A stretch of DNA of 64,000 bases from Phycisphaerales bacterium (GCA_013140575.1 JABFSN010000074.1:4431-68430); one strand, 5' to 3'. Shown: positions 5,987 through 13,056, counted from the first letter of the stretch. The notes: a model not told the origin generated them from the letters alone. Numbers and translations: made by a program.

Positions 5987-6062
5987 TCGGGGCGACAGGA
6001 TTCGAACCTGCGACCTCTTGACCCCCAGTCAAGCACTCTAAACCAGACTGAGCTACGCCCCG
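5987..6062 (-). tRNA. tRNA-Pro (anticodon GGG), CCA not encoded
   Basis: Reverse complement CGGGGCGTAGCTCAGTCTGGTTTAGAGTGCTTGACTGGGGGTCAAGAGGTCGCAGGTTCGAATCCTGTCGCCCCGA folds as a cloverleaf with T-loop GTTCGAATC. Confidence 0.96.
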
Positions 6063-7337: not shown

Positions 7338-8207
7338 TCACGACCGCGGCGCCGGCTTTCGCGCCGCGATGTCCAGGCTGGTGATGTAATCCGCGGGCTG
7401 CTCGCCGGTCGGCAGGTTCTCGACGATCTTGCGGTACAGCGGGTCCTGCATCTCGCCCAGCGTCTTAATGAACCCGGGTTTGGGCGTCAGGCGAATGTCC
7501 GTCAAACCGGCCGCCCGCATCATGTCCCGCGTTTCGTCGATCAAGGCCGCCCCCGCGATGCAGCCCACCAGCGCCTCCATCATCGCGCGCACCTCGCGGG
7601 GCAATGGCCGGAGCAGGGCCAGGTCGGAAACCGCCGCCCGTCCGCCCGGTTTCAGCACGCGGGCAATCTCCCGCCACACCTGCGGCTTGTCCGGCGACAG
7701 ATTCAGCACGCAATTGGAGATGACCACGTCCACGCCGGCGTCGGCGGCCGGCAAATGCTCGATCTCGCCCAGCCGGAACTCGACGTTATCCAGCCCGGTG
7801 CGTTCGCGGTATTGCCCGACGCCGCCGCGGGCCCGCGAGATCATCTGCGGGGTCATGTCCACGCCGATGACCCGGCCGGTCCGTCCGACCATCGGCCCGG
7901 CGATGAAGCAATCCAGCCCCCCGCCGCTGCCCAGATCGAGCACCACCTCGCCCGGTTTCAATGCCGCCAGCGCCGTGGGGTTCCCGCACGACAGCCCCAT
8001 GTCCGCCCCGTCGGGCAAGCGGTCCAGCTCGTTCGTCGCGTAGCCGATGCGCTCGGTGATCGAAACCGCGCCCGCGTTGACGTCCGCGCCATCGCAACAC
8101 GGGCTGGACCCGCAGCATCCCGATCCCCCCTTCTCCGCGATCGCCGCGTATCCCTGCCGCACCTGATCGATCACCGTCTGTTTGCCGTCTGTTTCCATTC
8201 GTTTCAT
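7338..8207 (-). CDS. arsM: Arsenite S-adenosylmethionine methyltransferase
   Basis: GCCGSSPCC, MGLSCGNPTA, VLDLGSGGGLDC, IGVDMTPQM, DVVISNCVLNLSPDK, GCIAGA. Confidence 0.93.
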   Translation of the reverse strand: MKRMETDGKQTVIDQVRQGYAAIAEKGGSGCCGSSPCCDGADVNAGAVSITERIGYATNELDRLPDGADMGLSCGNPTALAALKPGEVVLDLGSGGGLDCFIAGPMVGRTGRVIGVDMTPQMISRARGGVGQYRERTGLDNVEFRLGEIEHLPAADAGVDVVISNCVLNLSPDKPQVWREIARVLKPGGRAAVSDLALLRPLPREVRAMMEALVGCIAGAALIDETRDMMRAAGLTDIRLTPKPGFIKTLGEMQDPLYRKIVENLPTGEQPADYITSLDIAARKPAPRS

Positions 8208-8297
8208 GTCTTGCTCCTTCGTGTATCGGTTCGTGTCCTGGTCCTTCGCGTGTCGCCGACGGGTCCGTGACGGTTTCGGCGAGCCGCCCCACTCCTG

Positions 8298-8368
8298 TCA
8301 GGGCCGCGGGCGCAAGCCCGCGGATGACTTGCGAGCGTTCGTCACCGGGCTCGCGCCCGGTGCTCTGA
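8298..8368. repeat. REP doublet (TCAGA/TCTGA family)
   Basis: tcagggccgcgggcgcaagcccgcgg (8298-8323) facing caccgggctcgcgcccggtgctctga (8343-8368). Confidence 0.75.
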
Positions 8369-8427
8369 TAAACGTTGCCGGTCCATTCCGTCCCGCACCC
8401 CATGTCGCCTGATTCCCGCGCTCGCCC

Positions 8428-8476
8428 TTGACGGTCGCCTGATTCTATATTAGCATATATGCACCAATATGCAAGT
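8428..8476 (+). promoter_or_regulatory. arsR promoter with overlapping ArsR-type operator
   Basis: TTGACG-N17-TAGCAT; AT-rich inverted repeat GCATAT-N8-ATATGC spanning the -10 box and the start codon. Confidence 0.55.
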
Positions 8477-8852
8477 ATCCCGACAAAAAAAGACGCGGAT
8501 CGCGCCCCGCCGACCGGACGTTCGCCGCACCGCCCGCCGGCGGGGCGCTTGCTGCGGCACGCTCGAAACCTGCCTCGACGCCCGGCTGTTCAAGGCCCTG
8601 GCCGACCCCACCCGCCTGCACATCCTCGTCTGCCTCGCCGGTTGTTGCCGCCCCCAGACCGTCGGTCAGGTGGCCGCCTGCTGCGCCGTGGACCTTTCCG
8701 TCGTCTCCCGGCACCTCGCCCTCCTTCGCGATTCCGGCATCCTCACCGTCCAAAAACAGGGCCGCTCCGTGCTCTATTCGGTGCGTTACGCCGATCTCGC
8801 CGAATCGCTCCACGCCTTGGCCGACGCATTGGAAGGCTGTTGTCGGGCCTAA
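8469..8852 (+). CDS. arsR: ArsR/SmtB family metalloregulator
   Basis: LFKALADPTRLHIL...VDLSVVSRHLALLRDSGIL...GRSVLY; several CC pairs; divergent from arsM. Confidence 0.9.
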   Translation: MQVSRQKKTRIAPRRPDVRRTARRRGACCGTLETCLDARLFKALADPTRLHILVCLAGCCRPQTVGQVAACCAVDLSVVSRHLALLRDSGILTVQKQGRSVLYSVRYADLAESLHALADALEGCCRA

Positions 8853-9098
8853 ACAAAGCGAGGCGGCATTGCCGAATTCGCTGAAGCCCCAGTTTCCGAC
8901 CGCGGTCCTGGAATGCAGTACCCGCGATATCCGGCGCACGGTGCGGCCTTTTGCTGGACGGCGAGCGAACAGGTCAAGGCGGATTTCTGGATTTTCTCAA
9001 AACGTGCTCGCGAAAGTGATGCGCCGCTCCCGCGATCAGCCCGTGTTCCACTTACGCAAGTCGTGTCGTGGGTGGAAGCGCCGCCGCTGTCGCGATGA

Positions 9099-9962
9099 TC
9101 AATCATGCCGAGGAAAGAGACCGGTCCATTTCGGATGATCCGCGTGGAGGATCGGAATCGAATTGTTGGGTGATCGGTGCTGAAACACGACCACAAACCC
9201 ACACTCGCCAAAGCCCTTCGGACACTTCTCATCTGCGATTCTGCCGTAGTGAAGTAACCTGACGCGGTCAGCTTTTGTGAAATACTTGCAGTGATCCGAG
9301 AATACGTCGTCGCTCTCACGTAGCTCATGTGCCGATACAAGACTGATACTCGTTTCATCCGCAATCCGGTTGCGGGCCGCCTTGGACGCGACCACCACGA
9401 CAAGGTAAACCCTTCCGACGCCGGCGAGAAGCGCGCCGAAGGATGTCTCGGGATTGTTCCAAGCATCGCACACCTGCGTTCCGGTACCGCTAAAATCATC
9501 CAACAGGACTACGACGTCGTCTCTCCCCAGTTTGTGAGGATCGTCTTCCGGCAGAAGAGGCTGCCGAAAGAGGTCGCTCCGCGAGACAAACAACTCGTTC
9601 ATTTGTTTCGAGTCGAGTCCGTTGGCAATTCGAAACTGGTAGAGCATCGCGTCGCCGCTCTCACCAGCGCTCCCGGACATCGCTGCGAATCGCCATTGGC
9701 CTTTTCGCCTCGATGCTGCACGGTCCCAGCCATCCAATGCCTTCAACGCGTCGCGGTATGCCGCGTGAATCCGGCTCTGACCGTAATACTCGACCGCATC
9801 CAGAACTCGCGCGGCCAAGTCCTGGTCCGATGGTTGGAACTGGTTCAACCAACTTTGAATGGTGATATTGATGATCCCAGCGCGGTACGACCCGAAATGG
9901 TCGACCCACCGCTTATACCGCTTCGCATCGATACGAGTTCCGGGGGCAGGAGGATGCCTCAC
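9099..9962 (-). CDS. Phosphoribosyltransferase-like protein (conflict-system type PRTase)
   Basis: WLNQFQPSDQDLAARVL, GESG, PRPP-binding loop VVLLDDFSGTGTQ, C-terminal GFG...SPNNSIPIL...WTGLFPR; GTG start overlaps the upstream stop (GTGA). Confidence 0.75.
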   Translation of the reverse strand: MRHPPAPGTRIDAKRYKRWVDHFGSYRAGIINITIQSWLNQFQPSDQDLAARVLDAVEYYGQSRIHAAYRDALKALDGWDRAASRRKGQWRFAAMSGSAGESGDAMLYQFRIANGLDSKQMNELFVSRSDLFRQPLLPEDDPHKLGRDDVVVLLDDFSGTGTQVCDAWNNPETSFGALLAGVGRVYLVVVVASKAARNRIADETSISLVSAHELRESDDVFSDHCKYFTKADRVRLLHYGRIADEKCPKGFGECGFVVVFQHRSPNNSIPILHADHPKWTGLFPRHD

Positions 9963-10960
9963 TTCTCGTCCCTCCGCCCCAAGGCACGCAGCTTCTCACG
10001 GATAAGCTGGGCCAGCGAATCGAGGCGCATCCACATCGCTTCCTCGCCGTAGAACTCATCTATGTCGATATCGTCTATCTGCGCATAGAGATTGTCAGCG
10101 ACCTTGAGAACCCTCTTGGCCTCAGCCGCAACTCTCGCCGACTCAATGTTGAGATGGTCTGGCGTTAATGATGGCTGGGCCGCAAACTCCTGGAGTCGCT
10201 TGGAAATCGTCGCCACTTTCCTCACTTTCACTGCGTTGTTGATGTACTGCTTGACGATGCGAAAGTCCGTTACAGCCTTTATTCCCTTCGCCTCGAACTT
10301 CTTGAGCATGTCGTCCGTGAATTTGTTCTTCTGGAACCATGCGAATTTCCTGACCTCGCGGTCATTTCGCACGACATACAATTCAATAAAAAAGTCGGCC
10401 TTCTTGCGCTTAGCCGGGTCCGCGTCCAGCATCATGTCCTGGTATCGTTTGTCGTAAGAGAGAAGCTTCTTGCACCGAACAACGACTGCTTCGTCAAGTC
10501 CGGTAAGTTCGGCGAGGCGCTTCTCCTTGGTTTCATCCAGCTCGCGCATAAGCAGTTCAAGTTTTAGCGCCGTGGGCATCAGTTCCCAGTCCTCTCGCAG
10601 CTTGTGAATCTGAAACATCGTGACAATGTTCTGGACCAACGTTGGTTCTGCGACCTCATTGACCGGGATAGTCGCTAGCGCTAGTTCCTTGGCGCACATC
10701 CACCGCCGTTGGCCGTCCAGGATCACGTAGTTTCCCGTGTGCTTCTCCTTGTAGACGGTGAGTGGCACGAGAATACCGACCTTCGAGATGGACTCACGAA
10801 GTACCGTCATGTCTTCGCGGTCAAAGAGCATTCGCGGGTTGTGGGGATTCGCTCTGAGCTTGTTCGTGGACAGGCGCTTTACGCCTATTGCCTTTACTCC
10901 GAATTGGTTGGTCTTCATGAAATCACCCGACCGCGGCCAACGACTATTTGCGTCGCCCAT
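9959..10960 (-). CDS. Orphan ParB/Srx N-terminal domain protein with HTH
   Basis: NPHNPR, GILVPLTV, YVILDGQRRW, IHKLREDW, HTH EKRLAELTGLDEAVVVR; alternative start at 10918. Confidence 0.85.
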   Translation of the reverse strand: MGDANSRWPRSGDFMKTNQFGVKAIGVKRLSTNKLRANPHNPRMLFDREDMTVLRESISKVGILVPLTVYKEKHTGNYVILDGQRRWMCAKELALATIPVNEVAEPTLVQNIVTMFQIHKLREDWELMPTALKLELLMRELDETKEKRLAELTGLDEAVVVRCKKLLSYDKRYQDMMLDADPAKRKKADFFIELYVVRNDREVRKFAWFQKNKFTDDMLKKFEAKGIKAVTDFRIVKQYINNAVKVRKVATISKRLQEFAAQPSLTPDHLNIESARVAAEAKRVLKVADNLYAQIDDIDIDEFYGEEAMWMRLDSLAQLIREKLRALGRRDEK

Positions 10961-11914
10961 CTACCGGCCCGAGATTGGGCGATTGCTGATGAGCCATTCG
11001 TACGCGAGCTTTCGATCTCCTGCAAAACCAGCGACATGTCGTCGAATCGGCAGTCGGATGGAGTGCCATTCGATGGCCAACAGTCTAGATTCAGCGCAAT
11101 CGGCATATGAGACGAGAAAGTCCGCGCCCCGCGCGACGATCGCGTTGAGCCCATCCGTAAGACGTGGGATATCGGAGGTGTCAAACGTGTTCTTTCCATA
11201 TTGTTTGAAAATGCGGCGTGATTTCACGGCATACGGAGGGTCGAGATATACGAAGTCGCCCGTCTCTACATGATCGAGAGCCTTTATGAAGTCACCGGCG
11301 ACCAGAGTGGTCGTTCGCAGCAACCTGGAGCAGTTGAGGAGGTCATCCTTGCTAAAGTACTCCCCGGGCCGCCGTCCCATCGGAACGTTAAACTGGCCGT
11401 TCGCGTTGGTCCTGTAGATACCGTTAAAACAATTGCGGTTGAGGTACAGAAATCGCAGCGCTCGCGTTTCGCGGTCGAGGAACCTCGGATCGAGACTCCG
11501 CCAGCGGTAGTACGTCGGCACGTCTCGCGCGATTCGACAGAGTCGCCGATAGAGGCGCTCGGGTTCGTCCCGCACGACGCCGTAGAGCTGGATCAAGTCC
11601 GTATTGAGATCTCCAAGGACCGCCGAGGCTGGCGCAAGCTCGAAGAAAAGGCATGCCGATCCGGCGAACGGCTCCACGTAACGCGAGTGACTCGCGGTCC
11701 AGAACGGAGCAAGCCGCGCCAGTTGCTTCCGCTTACTGCCGGCCCAGCGGAGGAAGGGCTTTCCGCGGGTTGGCGGCGCTTCATTAGCTGCGGCCTCCCG
11801 TGCGTCCGAAACCGTACTCGTTCGGCGCGTTGGATTCAGGACGATGACTCCTGCGTAACCATAGGCTGCGTGACTGTATTGAGATCGGCGTGCGTTCCGC
11901 GTCGCACGCACCAT
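10961..11914 (-). CDS. Dam/D12-class DNA adenine methyltransferase
   Basis: KPFLRWAGSK, YVEPFAGSA, FLYLNRNCFNGIYRTN...FNVPMG, VYLDPPY; true start uncertain and may be downstream. Confidence 0.93.
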   Translation of the reverse strand: MVRATRNARRSQYSHAAYGYAGVIVLNPTRRTSTVSDAREAAANEAPPTRGKPFLRWAGSKRKQLARLAPFWTASHSRYVEPFAGSACLFFELAPASAVLGDLNTDLIQLYGVVRDEPERLYRRLCRIARDVPTYYRWRSLDPRFLDRETRALRFLYLNRNCFNGIYRTNANGQFNVPMGRRPGEYFSKDDLLNCSRLLRTTTLVAGDFIKALDHVETGDFVYLDPPYAVKSRRIFKQYGKNTFDTSDIPRLTDGLNAIVARGADFLVSYADCAESRLLAIEWHSIRLPIRRHVAGFAGDRKLAYEWLISNRPISGR

Positions 11915-11917
11915 GAC

Positions 11918-11945
11918 ATTCTGATGCCCCGGCTCATTGCGTCAA
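11918..11945 (-). promoter_or_regulatory. Possible sigma70 promoter of the MTase-ParB-PRTase operon
   Basis: TTGACG-N16-CAGAAT on the minus strand; the -10 box is imperfect. Confidence 0.3.
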
Positions 11946-12039: not shown

Positions 12040-12285
12040 TTCGACGACCCCTTCGGAGTCGGCCCCGTTTCCACGGCCATGCTTCCGGGGGTCGCGCTGC
12101 GCTTGACCCCCGGCTACGGACGTGGAGGCCTTCGGCCTCGGCGGTCGACCGCTGGTGCGAGAATCCCATCTCGCACCCACGCCGACGGGAACCCCTTCCC
12201 ACGGTTGCCGGAAGCGATTCCGGCGTGGTCCGGTCCGAGTAGGGATTCTCGAACGAGCGTTAGTCCCTTCTCGCACCTGTCCTAC
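12040..12285. repeat. REP-like palindrome cluster
   Basis: Hairpins cgaccccttcggagtcg, ccgggggtc...gacccccggctac, gaggccttcggcctc, ggtgcgagaatcccatctcgcacc (12154-12177) and a GTAG-ended partial copy at 12264-12285. Confidence 0.65.
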
Positions 12286-12290
12286 CGCCC

Positions 12291-12530
12291 TCACGCCGTC
12301 TTCGGCAGTCGAAAGTCCGCCAATACGGGAAGGTCGACGCCCTGCCCGTCCTTCATGCGCGTGGAGAAGAAAAGGATTTCGAGGTTTTCCACATCGCGGG
12401 AGGTGGGGTTCAGTCGGGCAATGAGGCCGTAGTCGAGTTCCGTCGATTCCTGCCCGGCATAGGGTGGAGTCTTGCCCAAATAGAGGATGTCGCCTTCCGC
12501 GTCGTATTTCACCGTCAAGGACGCGACCAT
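12291..12530 (-). CDS. DUF2283 family putative antitoxin
   Basis: LTVKYDAEGDILYL...ELDYGLIARLNP...VENLEILFFS. Confidence 0.8.
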   Translation of the reverse strand: MVASLTVKYDAEGDILYLGKTPPYAGQESTELDYGLIARLNPTSRDVENLEILFFSTRMKDGQGVDLPVLADFRLPKTA

Positions 12531-12853
12531 TCGGTGATCCCTTGAGTTAAGCGGCGGGTGACGTAGGCGGTAACGACCCAATGCCGGGGCGATTCCGCTT
12601 GAACATCATCGGTCACCACCGCGACCACTACGATCTTACCACCCAGCAGATCGTCGAACCAGCGAGAAAAGAGGCGCGTACCAGGAAACCGCGAATCGCG
12701 GCGGATTTCGTCGGGATCGCCAAGCGTCCGCGCGACCCGATCGCGGGTGGCATCGACCAACTCCGGGTGCCCGGCCCGGATATGCGCCAGGCGTTCATCC
12801 GTTAACTCGACTCGAACTGCGAGGTGGGGGCAAGGGAAGGAGATCATGACCAT
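12515..12853 (-). CDS. Putative BECR/RelE-like (DUF4258/PBECR2-type) ribonuclease toxin
   Basis: VELTDERLAHIRAGHPEL...TLGDPDEIRRD...KIVVVAVV...WVVTAY; overlaps the DUF2283 start in toxin-then-antitoxin order. Confidence 0.7.
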   Translation of the reverse strand: MVMISFPCPHLAVRVELTDERLAHIRAGHPELVDATRDRVARTLGDPDEIRRDSRFPGTRLFSRWFDDLLGGKIVVVAVVTDDVQAESPRHWVVTAYVTRRLTQGITEWSRP

Positions 12854-12863
12854 CGGTAAAGCC

Positions 12864-13032
12864 TGGTGGGCAAATCCTGGGAACCTGCCTTTGCCGTCAC
12901 CGTACACCGGCGGGTCAGAGACCTGCCCGACTACCAGCCACATTCGCGAACCGCGAATGGTCAAGGACTTCTGGTGCGAGAATCCCTTCTCGCACCCATC
13001 TCCGCGGCATTCCCTTCCCGCACACGGTCGCG
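12864..13032. repeat. REP-like palindrome cluster
   Basis: GTAG-type cgggtcagagacctgcccgactac (12911-12934); ctggtgcgagaatcccttctcgcaccca (12971-12998) is a near-identical direct copy of 12152-12179. Confidence 0.7.
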
Positions 13033-13056
13033 TTTGCAATCAAGCGACCCGTCGTT

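What the first reader, a model, noticed from the sequence alone, without database searches (positions are those of the whole stretch)
9099..11914. Candidate new defence or DNA-modification system: Dam methylase + orphan ParB-fold protein + PRTase, with no nuclease
Seen: three co-oriented genes are tightly coupled. The MTase stop TAG directly abuts the first in-frame ParB ATG at 10961/10960, and the ParB stop overlaps the PRTase start as GTGA at 9959-9962. The block is visibly more AT-rich than its flanks and lies between arsR and a REP/toxin-antitoxin cluster. The MTase keeps its FAG and DPPY motifs. The ParB protein keeps NPR and DGQRR plus an HTH, but has IHKLREDW instead of ENxxR and no ParA partner. 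The PRTase keeps DDFSGTG and the C-terminal PNN...W..LFPR. No restriction endonuclease is adjacent. Established: D12 MTases mark self DNA, ParB/Srx domains bind nucleotides and load on DNA, and PRTase-like proteins act as effectors in some anti-phage systems such as PRTase-containing retrons. Inference: either (a) an RM-like self/non-self system in which the ParB protein senses unmethylated DNA or MTase inhibition and triggers a nucleotide-depleting PRTase (abortive infection), or (b) a base-hypermodification pathway. I do not recognise this trio as a named system.
Basis: partly seen in the sequence, partly recalled or inferred. Interest (0 to 1): 0.88.

Follow-up and report, generated by a model that had tools for sequence, protein, structure and literature searches.

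The report
Conserved methylase–ParB–phosphoribosyltransferase gene cassette
Three tightly linked genes (a Dam-type DNA methylase, a ParB-like DNA-clamp protein and a defence-type phosphoribosyltransferase) form a small cassette that recurs almost unchanged in many unrelated soil bacteria and is probably an unnamed, nuclease-free, restriction-modification-like immune or addiction module.

Summary
Three co-oriented genes lie on the minus strand: a D12/Dam methylase (10961-11914), a ParB-like protein (9959-10918, probable true start) and a PRTase-CE phosphoribosyltransferase (9099-9962). The block has low GC. The trio is a real unit. I collected 83 loci by ParB similarity. PRTase lies directly downstream in 70 of 71 testable loci; the remaining one is frameshifted. 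A D12 methylase lies upstream in 61 of 65, and three of the four exceptions carry another methylase. No fourth gene is conserved, and flanks differ between loci. ParB and PRTase co-evolve (Spearman 0.83). The methylase is exchanged (0.46 and 0.42). The PRTase belongs to the family used as retron type III-A effectors. In other genomes it follows Dcm, N6/N4 or HsdM methylases. ParB keeps the CTP-clamp fold, but residues at two known hydrolysis-mutant positions are replaced. ParB matches no PADLOC v2 model. I found no relatives in the plasmid collection or in viral contigs, and only one weak N-terminal match among phage genomes. Eight literature searches found no description. Best reading: a mobile RM-like defence or addiction cassette with ParB as DNA-bound sensor or regulator and PRTase as effector. 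The mechanism is inferred, not shown.

The parts
10961..11914 (-). D12-class (Dam-family) N6-adenine DNA methyltransferase, 317-aa ORF. The conserved domain starts near residue 50, and the N-terminal ~45 aa are poorly conserved in relatives.
   Evidence: PF02086 6.2e-41 and TIGR00571 192.7 bits (cut-off 114.85). PADLOC MTase_II 2.7e-61. FAG and DPPY motifs are in the translation. The best solved relatives are DpnM 2dpm (5.1e-38) and E. coli Dam 2g1p (2.9e-28).
9959..10918 (-). ParB-like protein, 319 aa from the probable start; the ORF is open up to the ATG at 10960. It has a ParB/Srx N-terminal nucleotide-binding domain (about 10-95), an HTH DNA-binding domain (about 96-170) and a family-specific helical C-terminal domain (about 171-319).
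   Evidence: PF02195 3.6e-14. PDB sequence matches to Caulobacter ParB 6t1f (4.5e-13) and Spo0J 6sdk. AF2 model pLDDT 86.4. Foldseek matches ParB-CDP 6sdk at 1.2e-8, and also Noc and KorB. VIA gives KorB 8qa8 Z 12.2 and pNOB8 ParB-N 5k5d Z 11.7 with 213 residues aligned. The C-terminal domain has only 55 relatives among 1.84 billion representatives.
9099..9962 (-). PRTase-CE family phosphoribosyltransferase, 287 aa. Its GTG start overlaps the ParB stop (GTGA). The PRPP-loop motif VVVLLDDFSGTGTQ is at residues 150-163.
   Evidence: PF24390 6.9e-44, full length. PADLOC retron PRTase_III-A 3.2e-34. AF2 pLDDT 91.9. Type I PRTase fold: VIA Z 10.3, rmsd 3.5 over 133 residues to UPRTase 1vst, and Foldseek 7.8e-5 to 3g6w. 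D155, D156 and G161 are invariant in 24 relatives.
10614..10630 (.). 17-bp near-palindrome AACATTGTCACGATGTT (consensus AACATCGTNACGATGTT) inside the ParB gene, over the invariant NIVTMF codons. It is a candidate cis site (parS-like) for this ParB.
   Evidence: The palindrome is perfect in 33 of 80 distinct ParB coding sequences, against 12.5% expected from the same genes' codon use. 70 of 80 have at most one mismatch. It is perfect in 18 of 33 close and 15 of 47 distant relatives. Thr100 ACG is the second most codon-biased of 105 conserved columns. In the own genome this is the only site with at most 1 mismatch. The sequences are related, so the binomial p is not a true probability.
8750..11500 (.). 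Low-GC island that holds the cassette.
   Evidence: GC is 0.51-0.59 here, against 0.63-0.70 on both sides.
11918..11945 (-). Promoter-like hexamers TTGACG-16-CAGAAT just upstream of the methylase ORF (weak).
   Evidence: 1 site found against 0.9 expected in shuffles, so it is no more than chance. It is listed only as the sole candidate.

Best explanation
The three genes form one horizontally mobile, self-contained conflict module. It works like a restriction-modification system but has a metabolic effector instead of a nuclease.

- The Dam-type methylase marks the resident DNA. All closest solved relatives are methylases that I recall to be GATC-specific.
- The ParB-like protein is a DNA-bound nucleotide switch. 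It has a CTP-clamp fold and an HTH, and the residues at two positions where ParB hydrolysis mutants were crystallised are replaced. This suggests a slow or one-way switch.
- ParB is made with, and probably bound to, the PRTase-CE enzyme and controls it.
- When the switch is thrown, the PRTase consumes PRPP or otherwise upsets nucleotide pools. The trigger would be invading DNA, or DNA that lacks the methyl mark, including the host's own DNA after loss of the cassette. Growth and phage replication then stop (abortive infection or post-segregational killing).

Shown here: the gene content, the conserved synteny, the ParB-PRTase co-evolution, the methylase exchange, the folds and motifs, and the absence from phage and plasmid collections.

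Inferred: the defence or addiction role, ParB as sensor or regulator, the PRTase as effector, and any link between methylation state and triggering.
For: 1. Conserved unit. The set is 83 loci: 80 metagenome loci retrieved by ParB similarity (56-86% identity), 2 MAG loci and the window. PRTase follows ParB on the same strand in 70 of 71 loci with at least 300 nt downstream. The 71st (L030) carries the whole PRTase with a frameshift. A D12 methylase precedes ParB in 61 of 65 loci with at least 400 nt upstream. Of the 4 exceptions, L024 has the D12 methylase after the PRTase, L071 has a divergent D12 methylase and L097 has an N6/N4 methylase.
2. Translational coupling. Among 40 complete trios, 30 have the 4-nt stop/start overlap of ParB and PRTase. 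Nine have a 1-nt overlap or a gap of 0-2 nt. L030 is the frameshift case.
3. No conserved fourth gene lies within 4 kb, and flanks differ.
4. Pairwise identities of ParB and PRTase correlate (Spearman 0.83). The methylase correlates less (0.46 and 0.42; 38 trios). Two methylase subtypes about 47% identical sit on one tight ParB/PRTase clade.
5. Patchy spread. ParB relatives of about 80% identity occur in Tepidisphaeraceae, Bryobacteraceae, Xanthobacteraceae and Sulfotelmatobacter records, and in Phycisphaerae and Terriglobia MAGs. PRTase-CE is in 9 of 401 sampled genomes of the phylum. The cassette is a low-GC island.
6. The PRTase family is a defence effector elsewhere. It matches PADLOC retron III-A models and PRTase-CE is tabulated with type III-A1 retrons (passages of PMC13712802). 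[quoted passage not shown] Retron III PRTases pair with a DNA-binding wHTH protein (passages of PMC7736814).
7. Outside the trio, PRTase-CE again sits directly behind a DNA methylase in 4 of 10 loci examined: Dcm in L021 (own genome), N6/N4 in L015 and L102, HsdM in L014. It also sits in conflict-type contexts with ORC-CDC6-like ATPase plus CARF6, NACHT, an HD fusion and GIY-YIG.
8. Some trio loci border defence genes: a type III methylase (L077), REase_II-like genes (L097, L085), PDC-S14 (L045, L052) and ORC-CDC6-like plus phosphoesterase plus CARF6 (L035, L046).
9. The ParB fold matches CTP-binding ParB, Noc and KorB. R29, R71 and R72 are kept. N27 and Q70 stand at the positions that differ between the wild-type M. 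xanthus ParB chain and its Q52A and E93A mutant entries. N27 is invariant and Q70 is at least 90% conserved.
10. ParB-PRTase complex prediction: weak support. The score is 0.57 (runs 0.01, 0.77, 0.57) and the best of 3 controls is 0.00. The mark was reached by 58 of 80 solved complexes and 2 of 110 mismatched pairs. At 0.60 or under it was reached by only 7 of those 80 and by both mismatches that passed. The runs agree in at least 44% of contacts, and the partner's pLDDT is at least 83.
11. No relatives were found in plasmids or viral contigs. One weak N-terminal hit was found in phages.
Against: - There is no experimental datum for this cassette.
- ParB shows no co-variation with the methylase subtype: 2 discriminating positions, and the HTH is the most conserved domain. 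Sequence-specific reading of the methyl mark by ParB is therefore unsupported, unless all the methylases share one target.
- One distant ParB-PRTase pair (L016) has no methylase nearby. The methylase may therefore be an add-on.
- The defence-island context was seen in only a minority of loci, and no background control was run.
- The loci were all retrieved through ParB, and several are near duplicates. The synteny counts overstate independent observations.
- The complex prediction is only a weak pass, and one of the three runs scored 0.01.
- The role of the M. xanthus residues Q52 and E93 in CTP hydrolysis is recalled. It comes from no call; only the PDB titles name the mutants.
- ParB/Srx domains can be nickases or NTPases themselves (passages of PMC5512222). 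The PRTase need not be the only effector.
Confidence: 0.5

Rival explanations
1. Restriction by DNA phosphoribosylation. ParB loads on DNA and brings the PRTase. The PRTase transfers phosphoribose from PRPP onto a base of unmethylated (foreign) DNA and so blocks its replication. Dam-type methylation shields the host's sites. This also covers the first reader's reading (b), a DNA base-modification pathway.
For: - PRTase-CE follows a DNA methylase in three unrelated architectures: the trio; ORC-CDC6-like plus CARF6 in L021, L015 and L102; and type I RM in L014.
- In L014 the PRTase-CE gene lies between hsdM and an hsdS fused to a NADAR domain.
- A validated two-gene defence system, DS-32, pairs a PRTase with a NADAR protein that resembles the DNA ADP-ribosyl-glycohydrolase antitoxin DarG (passages of 10.1101/2025.01.08.631726).
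- ParB-like DpdB helps insert a modified base into DNA in Dpd systems (passages of PMC12839542).
- The PRPP loop and the DD motif are intact.
Against: - No PRTase is known to me to act on DNA (recalled).
- The two characterised defence PRTases act on small-molecule pools: Retron-Eco11 and ShosT (abstract in the listing).
- The trio itself has no NADAR or other eraser.
- I did not test whether DS-32A is of the PRTase-CE family, because no sequence was at hand.
Confidence: 0.15
2. ParB is itself the effector, and the PRTase is an accessory. The methylase and a ParB-type nickase or NTPase make a two-part RM-like or NTP-depleting system. The PRTase supplies or senses a nucleotide that gates ParB.
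For: - ParB/Srx domains with DNase, nicking or NTPase activity are described for Osa, for a ParB-methylase fusion and for GmrS (passages of PMC5512222; PMC12839542).
- A preprint reports a ParB-CTPase fold turned into an ATPase toxin (title and start of the abstract only).
- ParB is the most conserved of the three proteins.
- The invariant QIHKLREDW replaces the canonical box III.
Against: - The closest structures are DNA-clamp ParBs with an HTH, not nucleases.
- PRTase-CE is the shared module across many conflict contexts. It occupies the slot taken by a calcineurin-like phosphoesterase in the sister ORC-CDC6-like plus CARF6 systems L035 and L046. This fits an effector role for the PRTase.
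Confidence: 0.12
3. An establishment or anti-restriction module of a mobile element. The methylase protects incoming element DNA from host restriction. ParB and the PRTase act early after entry, as proposed for the methylase, ParB and PRTase domains of phage and plasmid polyvalent proteins.
For: - Iyer et al. 2017 describe a distinct PRTase group in invasive elements, alongside N6A methylase and ParB domains (section 24 and passages of PMC5512222).
- The cassette is clearly horizontally transferred.
Against: - No ParB relative was found in 72,556 plasmids at E <= 1e-20.
- None was found in IMG/VR with the protein or the profile.
- Only one 31.6%-identical N-terminal match was found in 50,697 phage records.
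- Flanks carry no recurrent phage or conjugation genes.
- No fused polyvalent form was found, which is weak evidence.
Confidence: 0.08
4. A housekeeping epigenetic or regulatory unit. An orphan Dam methylase sits with a ParB-type transcription factor (KorB-like) that binds the palindrome in its own gene. A salvage PRTase is co-transcribed by accident of history.
For: - KorB is a CTP-dependent ParB-family repressor and a top structural match.
- A conserved palindrome lies inside the ParB gene.
- PADLOC also scores the methylase against 'orphan methyltransferase' models.
Against: - The PRTase is of the conflict-effector family and is not a salvage enzyme: it has no NCBIfam hit and matches Pfam PRTase-CE only.
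- The distribution is patchy (9 of 401 genomes have any PRTase-CE), with about 80% identity across phyla. This does not fit a housekeeping role.
- The strict ParB-PRTase coupling argues for a joint function.
Confidence: 0.05

Closest known systems
Type III-A retrons (e.g. Retron-Eco11): RT + ncRNA + PRTase-like effector, often with a winged-helix DNA-binding partner
   Same: The effector is of the same family (PF24390 PRTase-CE; PADLOC PRTase_III-A 3.2e-34). The effector is paired with a DNA-binding protein. The documented outcome is PRPP depletion and abortive infection.
   Different: There is no reverse transcriptase and no recurrent fourth gene. The partner is a ParB-fold nucleotide switch, not a wHTH protein. 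A DNA methylase is part of the unit.
Uncharacterised [methylase] + PRTase-CE + ORC-CDC6-like ATPase (PF24389) + CARF6 clusters
   Same: PRTase-CE sits directly behind a DNA methylase (L021 in the same genome, L015, L102). The logic is an NTPase 'sensor' plus an effector.
   Different: The AAA+ ATPase and the CARF6 protein are absent. ParB takes their place. The trio's PRTase is only 22-28% identical to those PRTases.
Type II restriction-modification systems and orphan Dam methylases
   Same: The methylase is of the Dam family. The cassette is compact, mobile and low in GC. The methylase is exchanged as a module.
   Different: There is no restriction endonuclease gene. Two other conserved genes fill that place.
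CTP-dependent ParB clamps (ParB/Spo0J, Noc, KorB)
   Same: The N-terminal domain plus HTH fold is shared, and the NPR and GxRR arginines are kept. A palindrome lies inside the gene; I recall that a B. subtilis parS lies within spo0J.
   Different: There is no ParA. Box III ENLQRE is replaced by IHKLRED, and N and Q stand at the positions of the Q52A and E93A mutants. The C-terminal domain is unique. The protein is coupled to an enzyme.
ParB-like proteins of DNA-modification defence systems (DpdB of Dpd, DndB of Dnd)
   Same: A ParB-superfamily protein works beside a DNA-modifying enzyme in a self/non-self system (passages of PMC12839542).
   Different: There are no TGT/DpdA or Dnd genes. No Pfam DndB hit appeared at E <= 0.1. 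The partner enzyme is a PRTase.
PRTase toxins ShosT (ShosTA) and DS-32 (NADAR + PRTase)
   Same: A PRTase-superfamily enzyme is the toxic or defensive part of a small operon.
   Different: The neutralising partners differ (ShosA, NADAR). I did not test whether those PRTases are of the PRTase-CE family.
PRTase, ParB and N6A-methylase domains of phage and plasmid polyvalent proteins (Iyer et al. 2017)
   Same: The same three domain types recur in conflict settings.
   Different: Here they are separate genes in chromosomal cassettes, not fused. They were not found in the phage or plasmid collections searched. The ParB of that paper is the DdrB-like clade.

Membership tests
Pfam PRTase-CE (PF24390) | Score above the curated cut-off over the full model | tested here: met
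   151.1 bits against a cut-off of 27, model positions 1-253/253.
Type I phosphoribosyltransferase fold | PRTase core fold, with a hydrophobic strand followed by the DD + S/T-G-x-T PRPP loop | tested here: met
   VIA Z 10.3 to UPRTase 1vst; the top 34 rows are PRTases or PRPP synthetases. VVVLLDDFSGTGTQ is present, and D155, D156 and G161 are invariant.
Retron type III-A | Reverse transcriptase gene next to the PRTase | tested here: not met
   No further long ORF lies between arsR and the REP region. No recurrent flanking family was found in 83 loci.
Retron type III-A | msr/msd non-coding RNA | tested here: inconclusive
   Rfam gave only a sub-threshold CPEB3 chance hit. Retron ncRNAs of this type may not be in Rfam.
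Retron type III-A | PRTase-like effector | tested here: met
   PADLOC PRTase_III-A 3.2e-34.
Type II restriction-modification | Site-specific DNA methyltransferase | tested here: met
   PF02086, TIGR00571 and PADLOC MTase_II 2.7e-61. Catalytic activity was not tested.
Type II restriction-modification | Cognate restriction endonuclease gene | tested here: not met
   None is in the window's cassette. No conserved fourth gene was found. REase_II-like neighbours occur in only 2 loci.
ParABS partition system | Adjacent ParA ATPase | tested here: not met
   No such ORF is beside the gene. None recurs in the flanks.
ParABS partition system | ParB N-terminal CTP-binding domain with GxRR and box III ENLQRE | tested here: inconclusive
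   The fold and the arginines are kept. Box III reads IHKLRED, and N27 and Q70 replace the residues at the Q52A and E93A mutant positions. Nucleotide binding was not tested.
ParABS partition system | Palindromic parS site | tested here: inconclusive
   No shared motif was found in the non-coding flanks. A codon-bias-supported 17-bp palindrome lies inside the gene. Binding was not tested.
PRTase-CE + ORC-CDC6-like + CARF6 clusters | ORC-CDC6-like AAA+ ATPase (PF24389) and a CARF6 protein next to the PRTase | tested here: not met
   Both are absent from the trio. Both are present in L015, L019, L021 and L102, and the ATPase is present in L020.
Dpd / Dnd DNA-modification systems | DpdA (TGT-like) or DndACDE genes beside the ParB-like protein | tested here: not met
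   Neither is in the window nor recurs in the flanks.
DS-32 (NADAR + PRTase) | NADAR-domain partner | tested here: not met
   No NADAR is in the trio. NADAR was seen only in the separate locus L014.
Known systems in PADLOC-DB v2.0.0 | All components hit models of one named system | tested here: not met
   ParB hits 0 families. The methylase hits generic MTase models. The PRTase hits only the retron model. DefenseFinder and later PADLOC releases were not testable here.

The most novel reading that the evidence does not exclude
PRTase-CE enzymes are 'restriction enzymes without a nuclease'. They are delivered to DNA by a partner that sits on DNA: the ParB clamp here, an ORC-like ATPase elsewhere, or a type I specificity subunit elsewhere. 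They put a phosphoribosyl group from PRPP onto bases of DNA that lacks the cognate methyl mark, and replication stalls. Methylases act as the self-protecting half and NADAR domains as erasers. The 17-bp palindrome inside the ParB gene would be the clamp's loading site.
Probability: 0.12. Interest if true: 0.92.

Novelty: new variant of a known kind. Interest (0 to 1): 0.7.

Why it matters
If the reading is right, this is a compact, three-gene immune or addiction module spread across several phyla. It couples DNA methylation to a metabolic or nucleotide-directed effector, not to a nuclease. It also recruits a ParB-type CTP switch as the controlling part.

It would add a new architecture to the modification-dependent defence systems. 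It would give a second, retron-free setting in which to learn what activates PRTase-CE effectors. It would extend the roles of the ParB fold in immunity.

PRTase-CE follows methylases of four different classes (D12, Dcm, N6/N4, HsdM). This makes one question directly testable: is the activity of this effector family gated by DNA methylation?

The cassette is small (2.8 kb) and self-contained, so it is easy to test in a laboratory strain.

Tried and rejected
- **Conserved fourth gene.** I ran all-against-all BLASTP of 248 flanking ORFs within 4 kb in 83 loci. The largest family spans 3 loci (N6/N4 or type III-like methylases), and the others span 2. I rejected a hidden nuclease partner.
- **Shared DNA motif in non-coding flanks.** No 8- or 10-mer is shared by more than 5 of 33 upstream regions or 4 of 37 downstream regions.
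- **RNA families.** Only a CPEB3-ribozyme hit at 22.1 bits, below its gathering score of 35. I treat it as chance.
- **Mobile-element origin.** No plasmid hit. One weak phage hit. No ParB relative in IMG/VR with the protein or the profile. One distant PRTase (25% identity) in a viral contig; it belongs to a methylase plus PRTase plus ORC-CDC6-like cluster, not to the trio.
- **Fused forms of ParB.** None at E <= 1e-10 among proteins of 560-2000 aa. The tool itself calls this weak evidence.
- **Toxin-antitoxin label of the ORFs at 12291-12581 and 12515-13039.** No Pfam or PADLOC hit.
- **Promoter and terminator scan.** Counts are at the chance level.
- **Co-variation of ParB with methylase subtype.** Only 2 discriminating positions. 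I rejected this as support for sequence-specific reading of the mark.
- **Protein atlas.** Only generic 'ParB/RepB/Spo0J' cluster names.
- **GATC density.** 5.3 per kb in the cassette against 7.6 per kb in the 12-kb flanks. I drew no conclusion.
- **Fold of the ParB C-terminal domain.** No match above Z 6 beyond residue about 230. It was not folded alone, so I make no claim of a new fold.
- **Literature.** Searches found no paper describing a methylase + ParB + PRTase system. Supplementary files were not opened. The supplements of the DefensePredictor, PADLOC-candidate and polyvalent-protein papers may list such clusters.
- **Not available or not used.** DefenseFinder is not available.

Full report
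**What is there**

Three co-oriented ORFs lie on the minus strand:
- 10961-11914, 317 aa.
- 9959-10960, 333 aa.
- 9099-9962, 287 aa.

The first is a D12-class, Dam-family adenine methylase. It scores PF02086 at 6.2e-41 and TIGR00571 at 192.7 bits against a cut-off of 114.85. It stays below the E. coli Dam equivalog cut-off. Its FAG and DPPY motifs are in the translation.

The second is a ParB_N protein (PF02195 3.6e-14, TIGR00180 60 bits).

The third is a full-length member of Pfam PRTase-CE (6.9e-44). It also matches the PADLOC models of the PRTase effector of type III-A retrons (3.2e-34).

GC falls to 0.51-0.58 in the block, against 0.63-0.70 outside it.

Two corrections apply:
- The ParB gene most likely starts at ATG 10918, giving 319 aa. 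The database form of this protein has that length. Relatives start there, behind a GGGTGAT-like ribosome-binding site.
- The two small ORFs beyond the REP-like palindromes have no Pfam or PADLOC support as a toxin-antitoxin pair.

**Is the trio a unit?**

A scan of GTDB species genomes with the PRTase found the same three genes, in the same order, in a Phycisphaerae MAG (83% identity) and a Terriglobia MAG (74%). Their flanks are unrelated.

A metagenome scan with ParB returned 80 loci at 56-86% identity. I added the window and the two MAG loci, which makes 83.

- **PRTase.** It follows ParB directly on the same strand in 70 of 71 loci with at least 300 nt downstream. The one exception, L030, carries the whole PRTase with a frameshift near residue 127.
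- **Methylase.** A D12 methylase precedes ParB in 61 of 65 loci with at least 400 nt upstream.
- **The four exceptions:**
  - L024 has the D12 methylase after the PRTase.
  - L071 has a divergent D12 methylase.
  - L097 has an N6/N4 methylase 309 nt upstream on the other strand.
  - L095 has only 494 nt of flank.
- **Coupling.** Of 40 complete trios, 30 keep the 4-nt ParB/PRTase overlap. Nine have a 1-nt overlap or a gap of 0-2 nt. L030 is the frameshift case.
- **Fourth gene.** No further gene recurs within 4 kb. The largest flanking family spans 3 loci.

Caveat: all loci were retrieved through ParB, and some are near duplicates. The counts are therefore not independent events.

**Evolutionary behaviour**

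Across 38 non-identical trios, ParB and PRTase identities track each other (Spearman 0.83). The methylase tracks neither well (0.46 and 0.42).

Within one tight ParB/PRTase clade, two methylase subtypes about 47% identical occur. On a ParB+PRTase tree of 23 rows, the second subtype needs two changes. One of them is L024, where the gene order also differs.

ParB relatives of about 80% identity carry source names from Planctomycetota, Acidobacteriota and Alphaproteobacteria. In contrast, only 9 of 401 sampled genomes of the window's phylum have any PRTase-CE.

I found no ParB relative in 72,556 plasmids or in IMG/VR, with either the protein or the profile. One 31.6%-identical N-terminal match turned up in 50,697 phage records.

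The cassette thus behaves like a small, autonomously moving chromosomal module. This is the usual behaviour of RM and defence systems.

**The proteins**

*PRTase.* The model is confident (pLDDT 91.9). It has the type I PRTase fold:
- VIA Z 10.3, rmsd 3.5 over 133 residues, to UPRTase 1vst. The top 34 rows are PRTases or PRPP synthetases.
- Foldseek 7.8e-5 to 3g6w.

The PRPP loop VVVLLDDFSGTGTQ is intact, and D155, D156 and G161 are invariant in 24 relatives.

*ParB.* The model has pLDDT 86.4. It consists of a ParB/Srx N-domain, an HTH domain and a helical C-terminal domain. Its matches:
- ParB-CDP 6sdk, 1.2e-8, and also Noc and KorB.
- KorB-CTP 8qa8, Z 12.2.
- pNOB8 ParB-N 5k5d, Z 11.7, with 213 residues aligned.

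The alignments to M. xanthus ParB and to its Q52A and E93A mutant entries place N27 and Q70 of this protein at those two positions. N27 is invariant and Q70 is at least 90% conserved. Box III reads QIHKLREDW instead of ENLQRE. That Q52 and E93 serve CTP hydrolysis is my recollection, not a tool result. If it holds, this ParB binds nucleotide but turns it over slowly or not at all.

The C-terminal domain is family-specific. It has 55 relatives at E <= 0.001 among 1.84 billion representatives.

*Complex.* The ParB-PRTase prediction gave weak support. The score is 0.57 (runs 0.01, 0.77, 0.57), and the best of 3 controls is 0.00. The mark was reached by 58 of 80 solved complexes and 2 of 110 mismatches. 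At 0.60 or under it was reached by only 7 of those 80 and by both mismatches that passed. Contact agreement is at least 44%, and the partner's pLDDT is at least 83.

*Methylase.* Both methylase subtypes match DpnM (2dpm) and E. coli Dam best. I recall both of these to be GATC-specific. ParB shows only two positions that separate the two methylase groups. Its HTH is the most conserved domain.

**PRTase-CE elsewhere**

I examined ten non-trio loci:

| Locus | Context of PRTase-CE |
|---|---|
| L021 (own genome, contig C58) | Dcm methylase + PRTase-CE + ORC-CDC6-like ATPase + CARF6 |
| L015, L102 | N6/N4 methylase + PRTase-CE + ORC-CDC6-like ATPase; the downstream gene is CARF6 in L015, and in L102 a 322-aa ORF with no Pfam hit that I take to be the CARF6 counterpart |
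| L014 | hsdM - PRTase-CE - NADAR::hsdS - hsdR (type I RM) |
| L019, L020 | SIS/HAD protein + PRTase-CE + ORC-CDC6-like ATPase (L019 also has CARF6 and a PfkB kinase) |
| L016 | A distant ParB-PRTase pair with no methylase nearby |
| L017 | An HD-PRTase fusion |
| L018 | PRTase beside a NACHT protein |
| L013 | A GIY-YIG protein + PRTase |

So 4 of 10 again have a DNA methylase directly upstream. The methylases are of three further classes.

Beside two trio loci (L035, L046) lies an ORC-CDC6-like + CARF6 system. There a calcineurin-like phosphoesterase occupies the slot that the PRTase holds in L015 and L021. This fits PRTase-CE being an exchangeable effector.

**What the literature offers**

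- Type III retrons pair a PRTase-like protein with a winged-helix DNA-binding protein (passages of PMC7736814).
- In Retron-Eco11, activation of the PRTase lowers PRPP by about half and gives abortive infection (abstract and section 30 of PMC12746101).
- PRTase-CE is tabulated with type III-A1 retrons (passages of PMC13712802).
- ShosT is a PRTase toxin (abstract in the listing).
- Ophion uses a PRTase (passages of 10.1101/2025.09.30.679545).
- DS-32 is a validated NADAR + PRTase pair (passages of 10.1101/2025.01.08.631726).
- Iyer et al. 2017 noted a PRTase group in invasive elements and called its role enigmatic (section 24 of PMC5512222).
- ParB folds in immunity are discussed for effector-ParAB systems, DpdB, DndB and GmrS (passages).
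- None of eight searches found the methylase + ParB + PRTase trio. Supplements were not seen.

**Most likely mechanism (confidence 0.5)**

The cassette is a mobile RM-like module.
- The methylase marks resident DNA.
- The ParB-like switch sits on DNA and holds or controls the PRTase.
- On a trigger, the PRTase drains PRPP or nucleotide pools and halts growth and phage replication. The trigger would be foreign or unmarked DNA, or dilution of the mark after loss of the cassette.

Shown: composition, synteny, co-evolution, folds and distribution. Inferred: every functional step.

Against the detail that ParB reads the mark, ParB does not co-vary with the methylase, and one ParB-PRTase pair lacks a methylase (L016).

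The rivals are:
- DNA phosphoribosylation by the PRTase (0.15), suggested by the methylase and NADAR links.
- ParB itself as a nickase or NTPase effector (0.12).
- An element establishment module (0.08).
- A housekeeping regulatory unit (0.05).

**A side observation that may matter**

The invariant NIVTMF codons of ParB spell a 17-bp palindrome, AACATCGTNACGATGTT (window 10614-10630, one mismatch).
- It is perfect in 33 of 80 distinct coding sequences, against 12.5% expected from the same genes' codon use.
- It is perfect in 18 of 33 close and 15 of 47 distant relatives.
- Thr100 ACG is the second most codon-biased of 105 conserved columns.
- In the own genome, no other site has at most 1 mismatch.

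Relatedness inflates these figures. Still, the site is a reasonable candidate for the ParB binding site.

**Verdict**

It is not assignable to any system I could test. It is best filed as a new variant of modification-linked defence or addiction systems that uses a known effector family. Interest 0.7.

Noticed in passing
L021:4505-9909 (own genome, contig C58): A second PRTase-CE system lies in the same genome: Dcm cytosine methylase + PRTase-CE + ORC-CDC6-like ATPase + CARF6 protein. An ORF upstream (L021 2563-4002, minus strand) looks like an integrase. I did not scan it.
   Followed up: partly
L014:855-9302 (G295): PRTase-CE is inserted in a type I RM operon: hsdM, PRTase-CE, an hsdS fused to an N-terminal NADAR domain, then hsdR. 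It recalls the validated NADAR + PRTase defence pair DS-32.
   Followed up: partly
L035:329-4334 and L046:2489-6538: Beside the trio lies an ORC-CDC6-like ATPase + calcineurin-like phosphoesterase with wHTH + CARF6 cluster. The phosphoesterase sits where PRTase-CE sits in sister clusters.
   Followed up: partly
window 12154-12177 and 12973-12996 (degenerate copies at 12257-12277 and 13004-13024): REP-like palindrome GGTGCGAGAATCCC[AT]TCTCGCACC. There are 2 matches in the window against 0 expected. The copies flank two small ORFs (12291-12581, 12515-13039) that have no Pfam or PADLOC hit.
   Followed up: partly
window 10614-10630: A 17-bp near-palindrome lies inside the ParB gene and is kept by synonymous codon choice across the family. 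It is a possible parS-like site.
   Followed up: yes
L030:5386-6242: The PRTase gene of this trio is frameshifted near residue 127, while the methylase and ParB are intact. This is either a decaying effector or an assembly error.
   Followed up: partly
L058:3545-4080: A 534-nt spacer between the methylase and ParB holds a remnant that reads like a ParB N-terminus (…NPRLLFDKLPLDALRDN…).
   Followed up: no
window 5987-6062 and 7338-8852: tRNA-Pro (GGG) lies about 3 kb from the cassette. An ArsM-like SAM methyltransferase and ArsR lie between them. No direct repeats were found that would mark an integration site.
   Followed up: partly
L019:1828-9053 and L020:3701-8840: These PRTase-CE + ORC-CDC6-like clusters are preceded by a large SIS/HAD-like protein instead of a methylase. 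L019 also has CARF6 and is followed by a PfkB-family sugar kinase. This hints at a phosphosugar substrate.
   Followed up: no
own genome, contigs C140, C13, C225, C208, C253: Five further ParB_N matches occur in the genome, two of them adjacent on C140. A second D12 methylase lies on C253. The trio's ParB is therefore not the only ParB of the genome.
   Followed up: no
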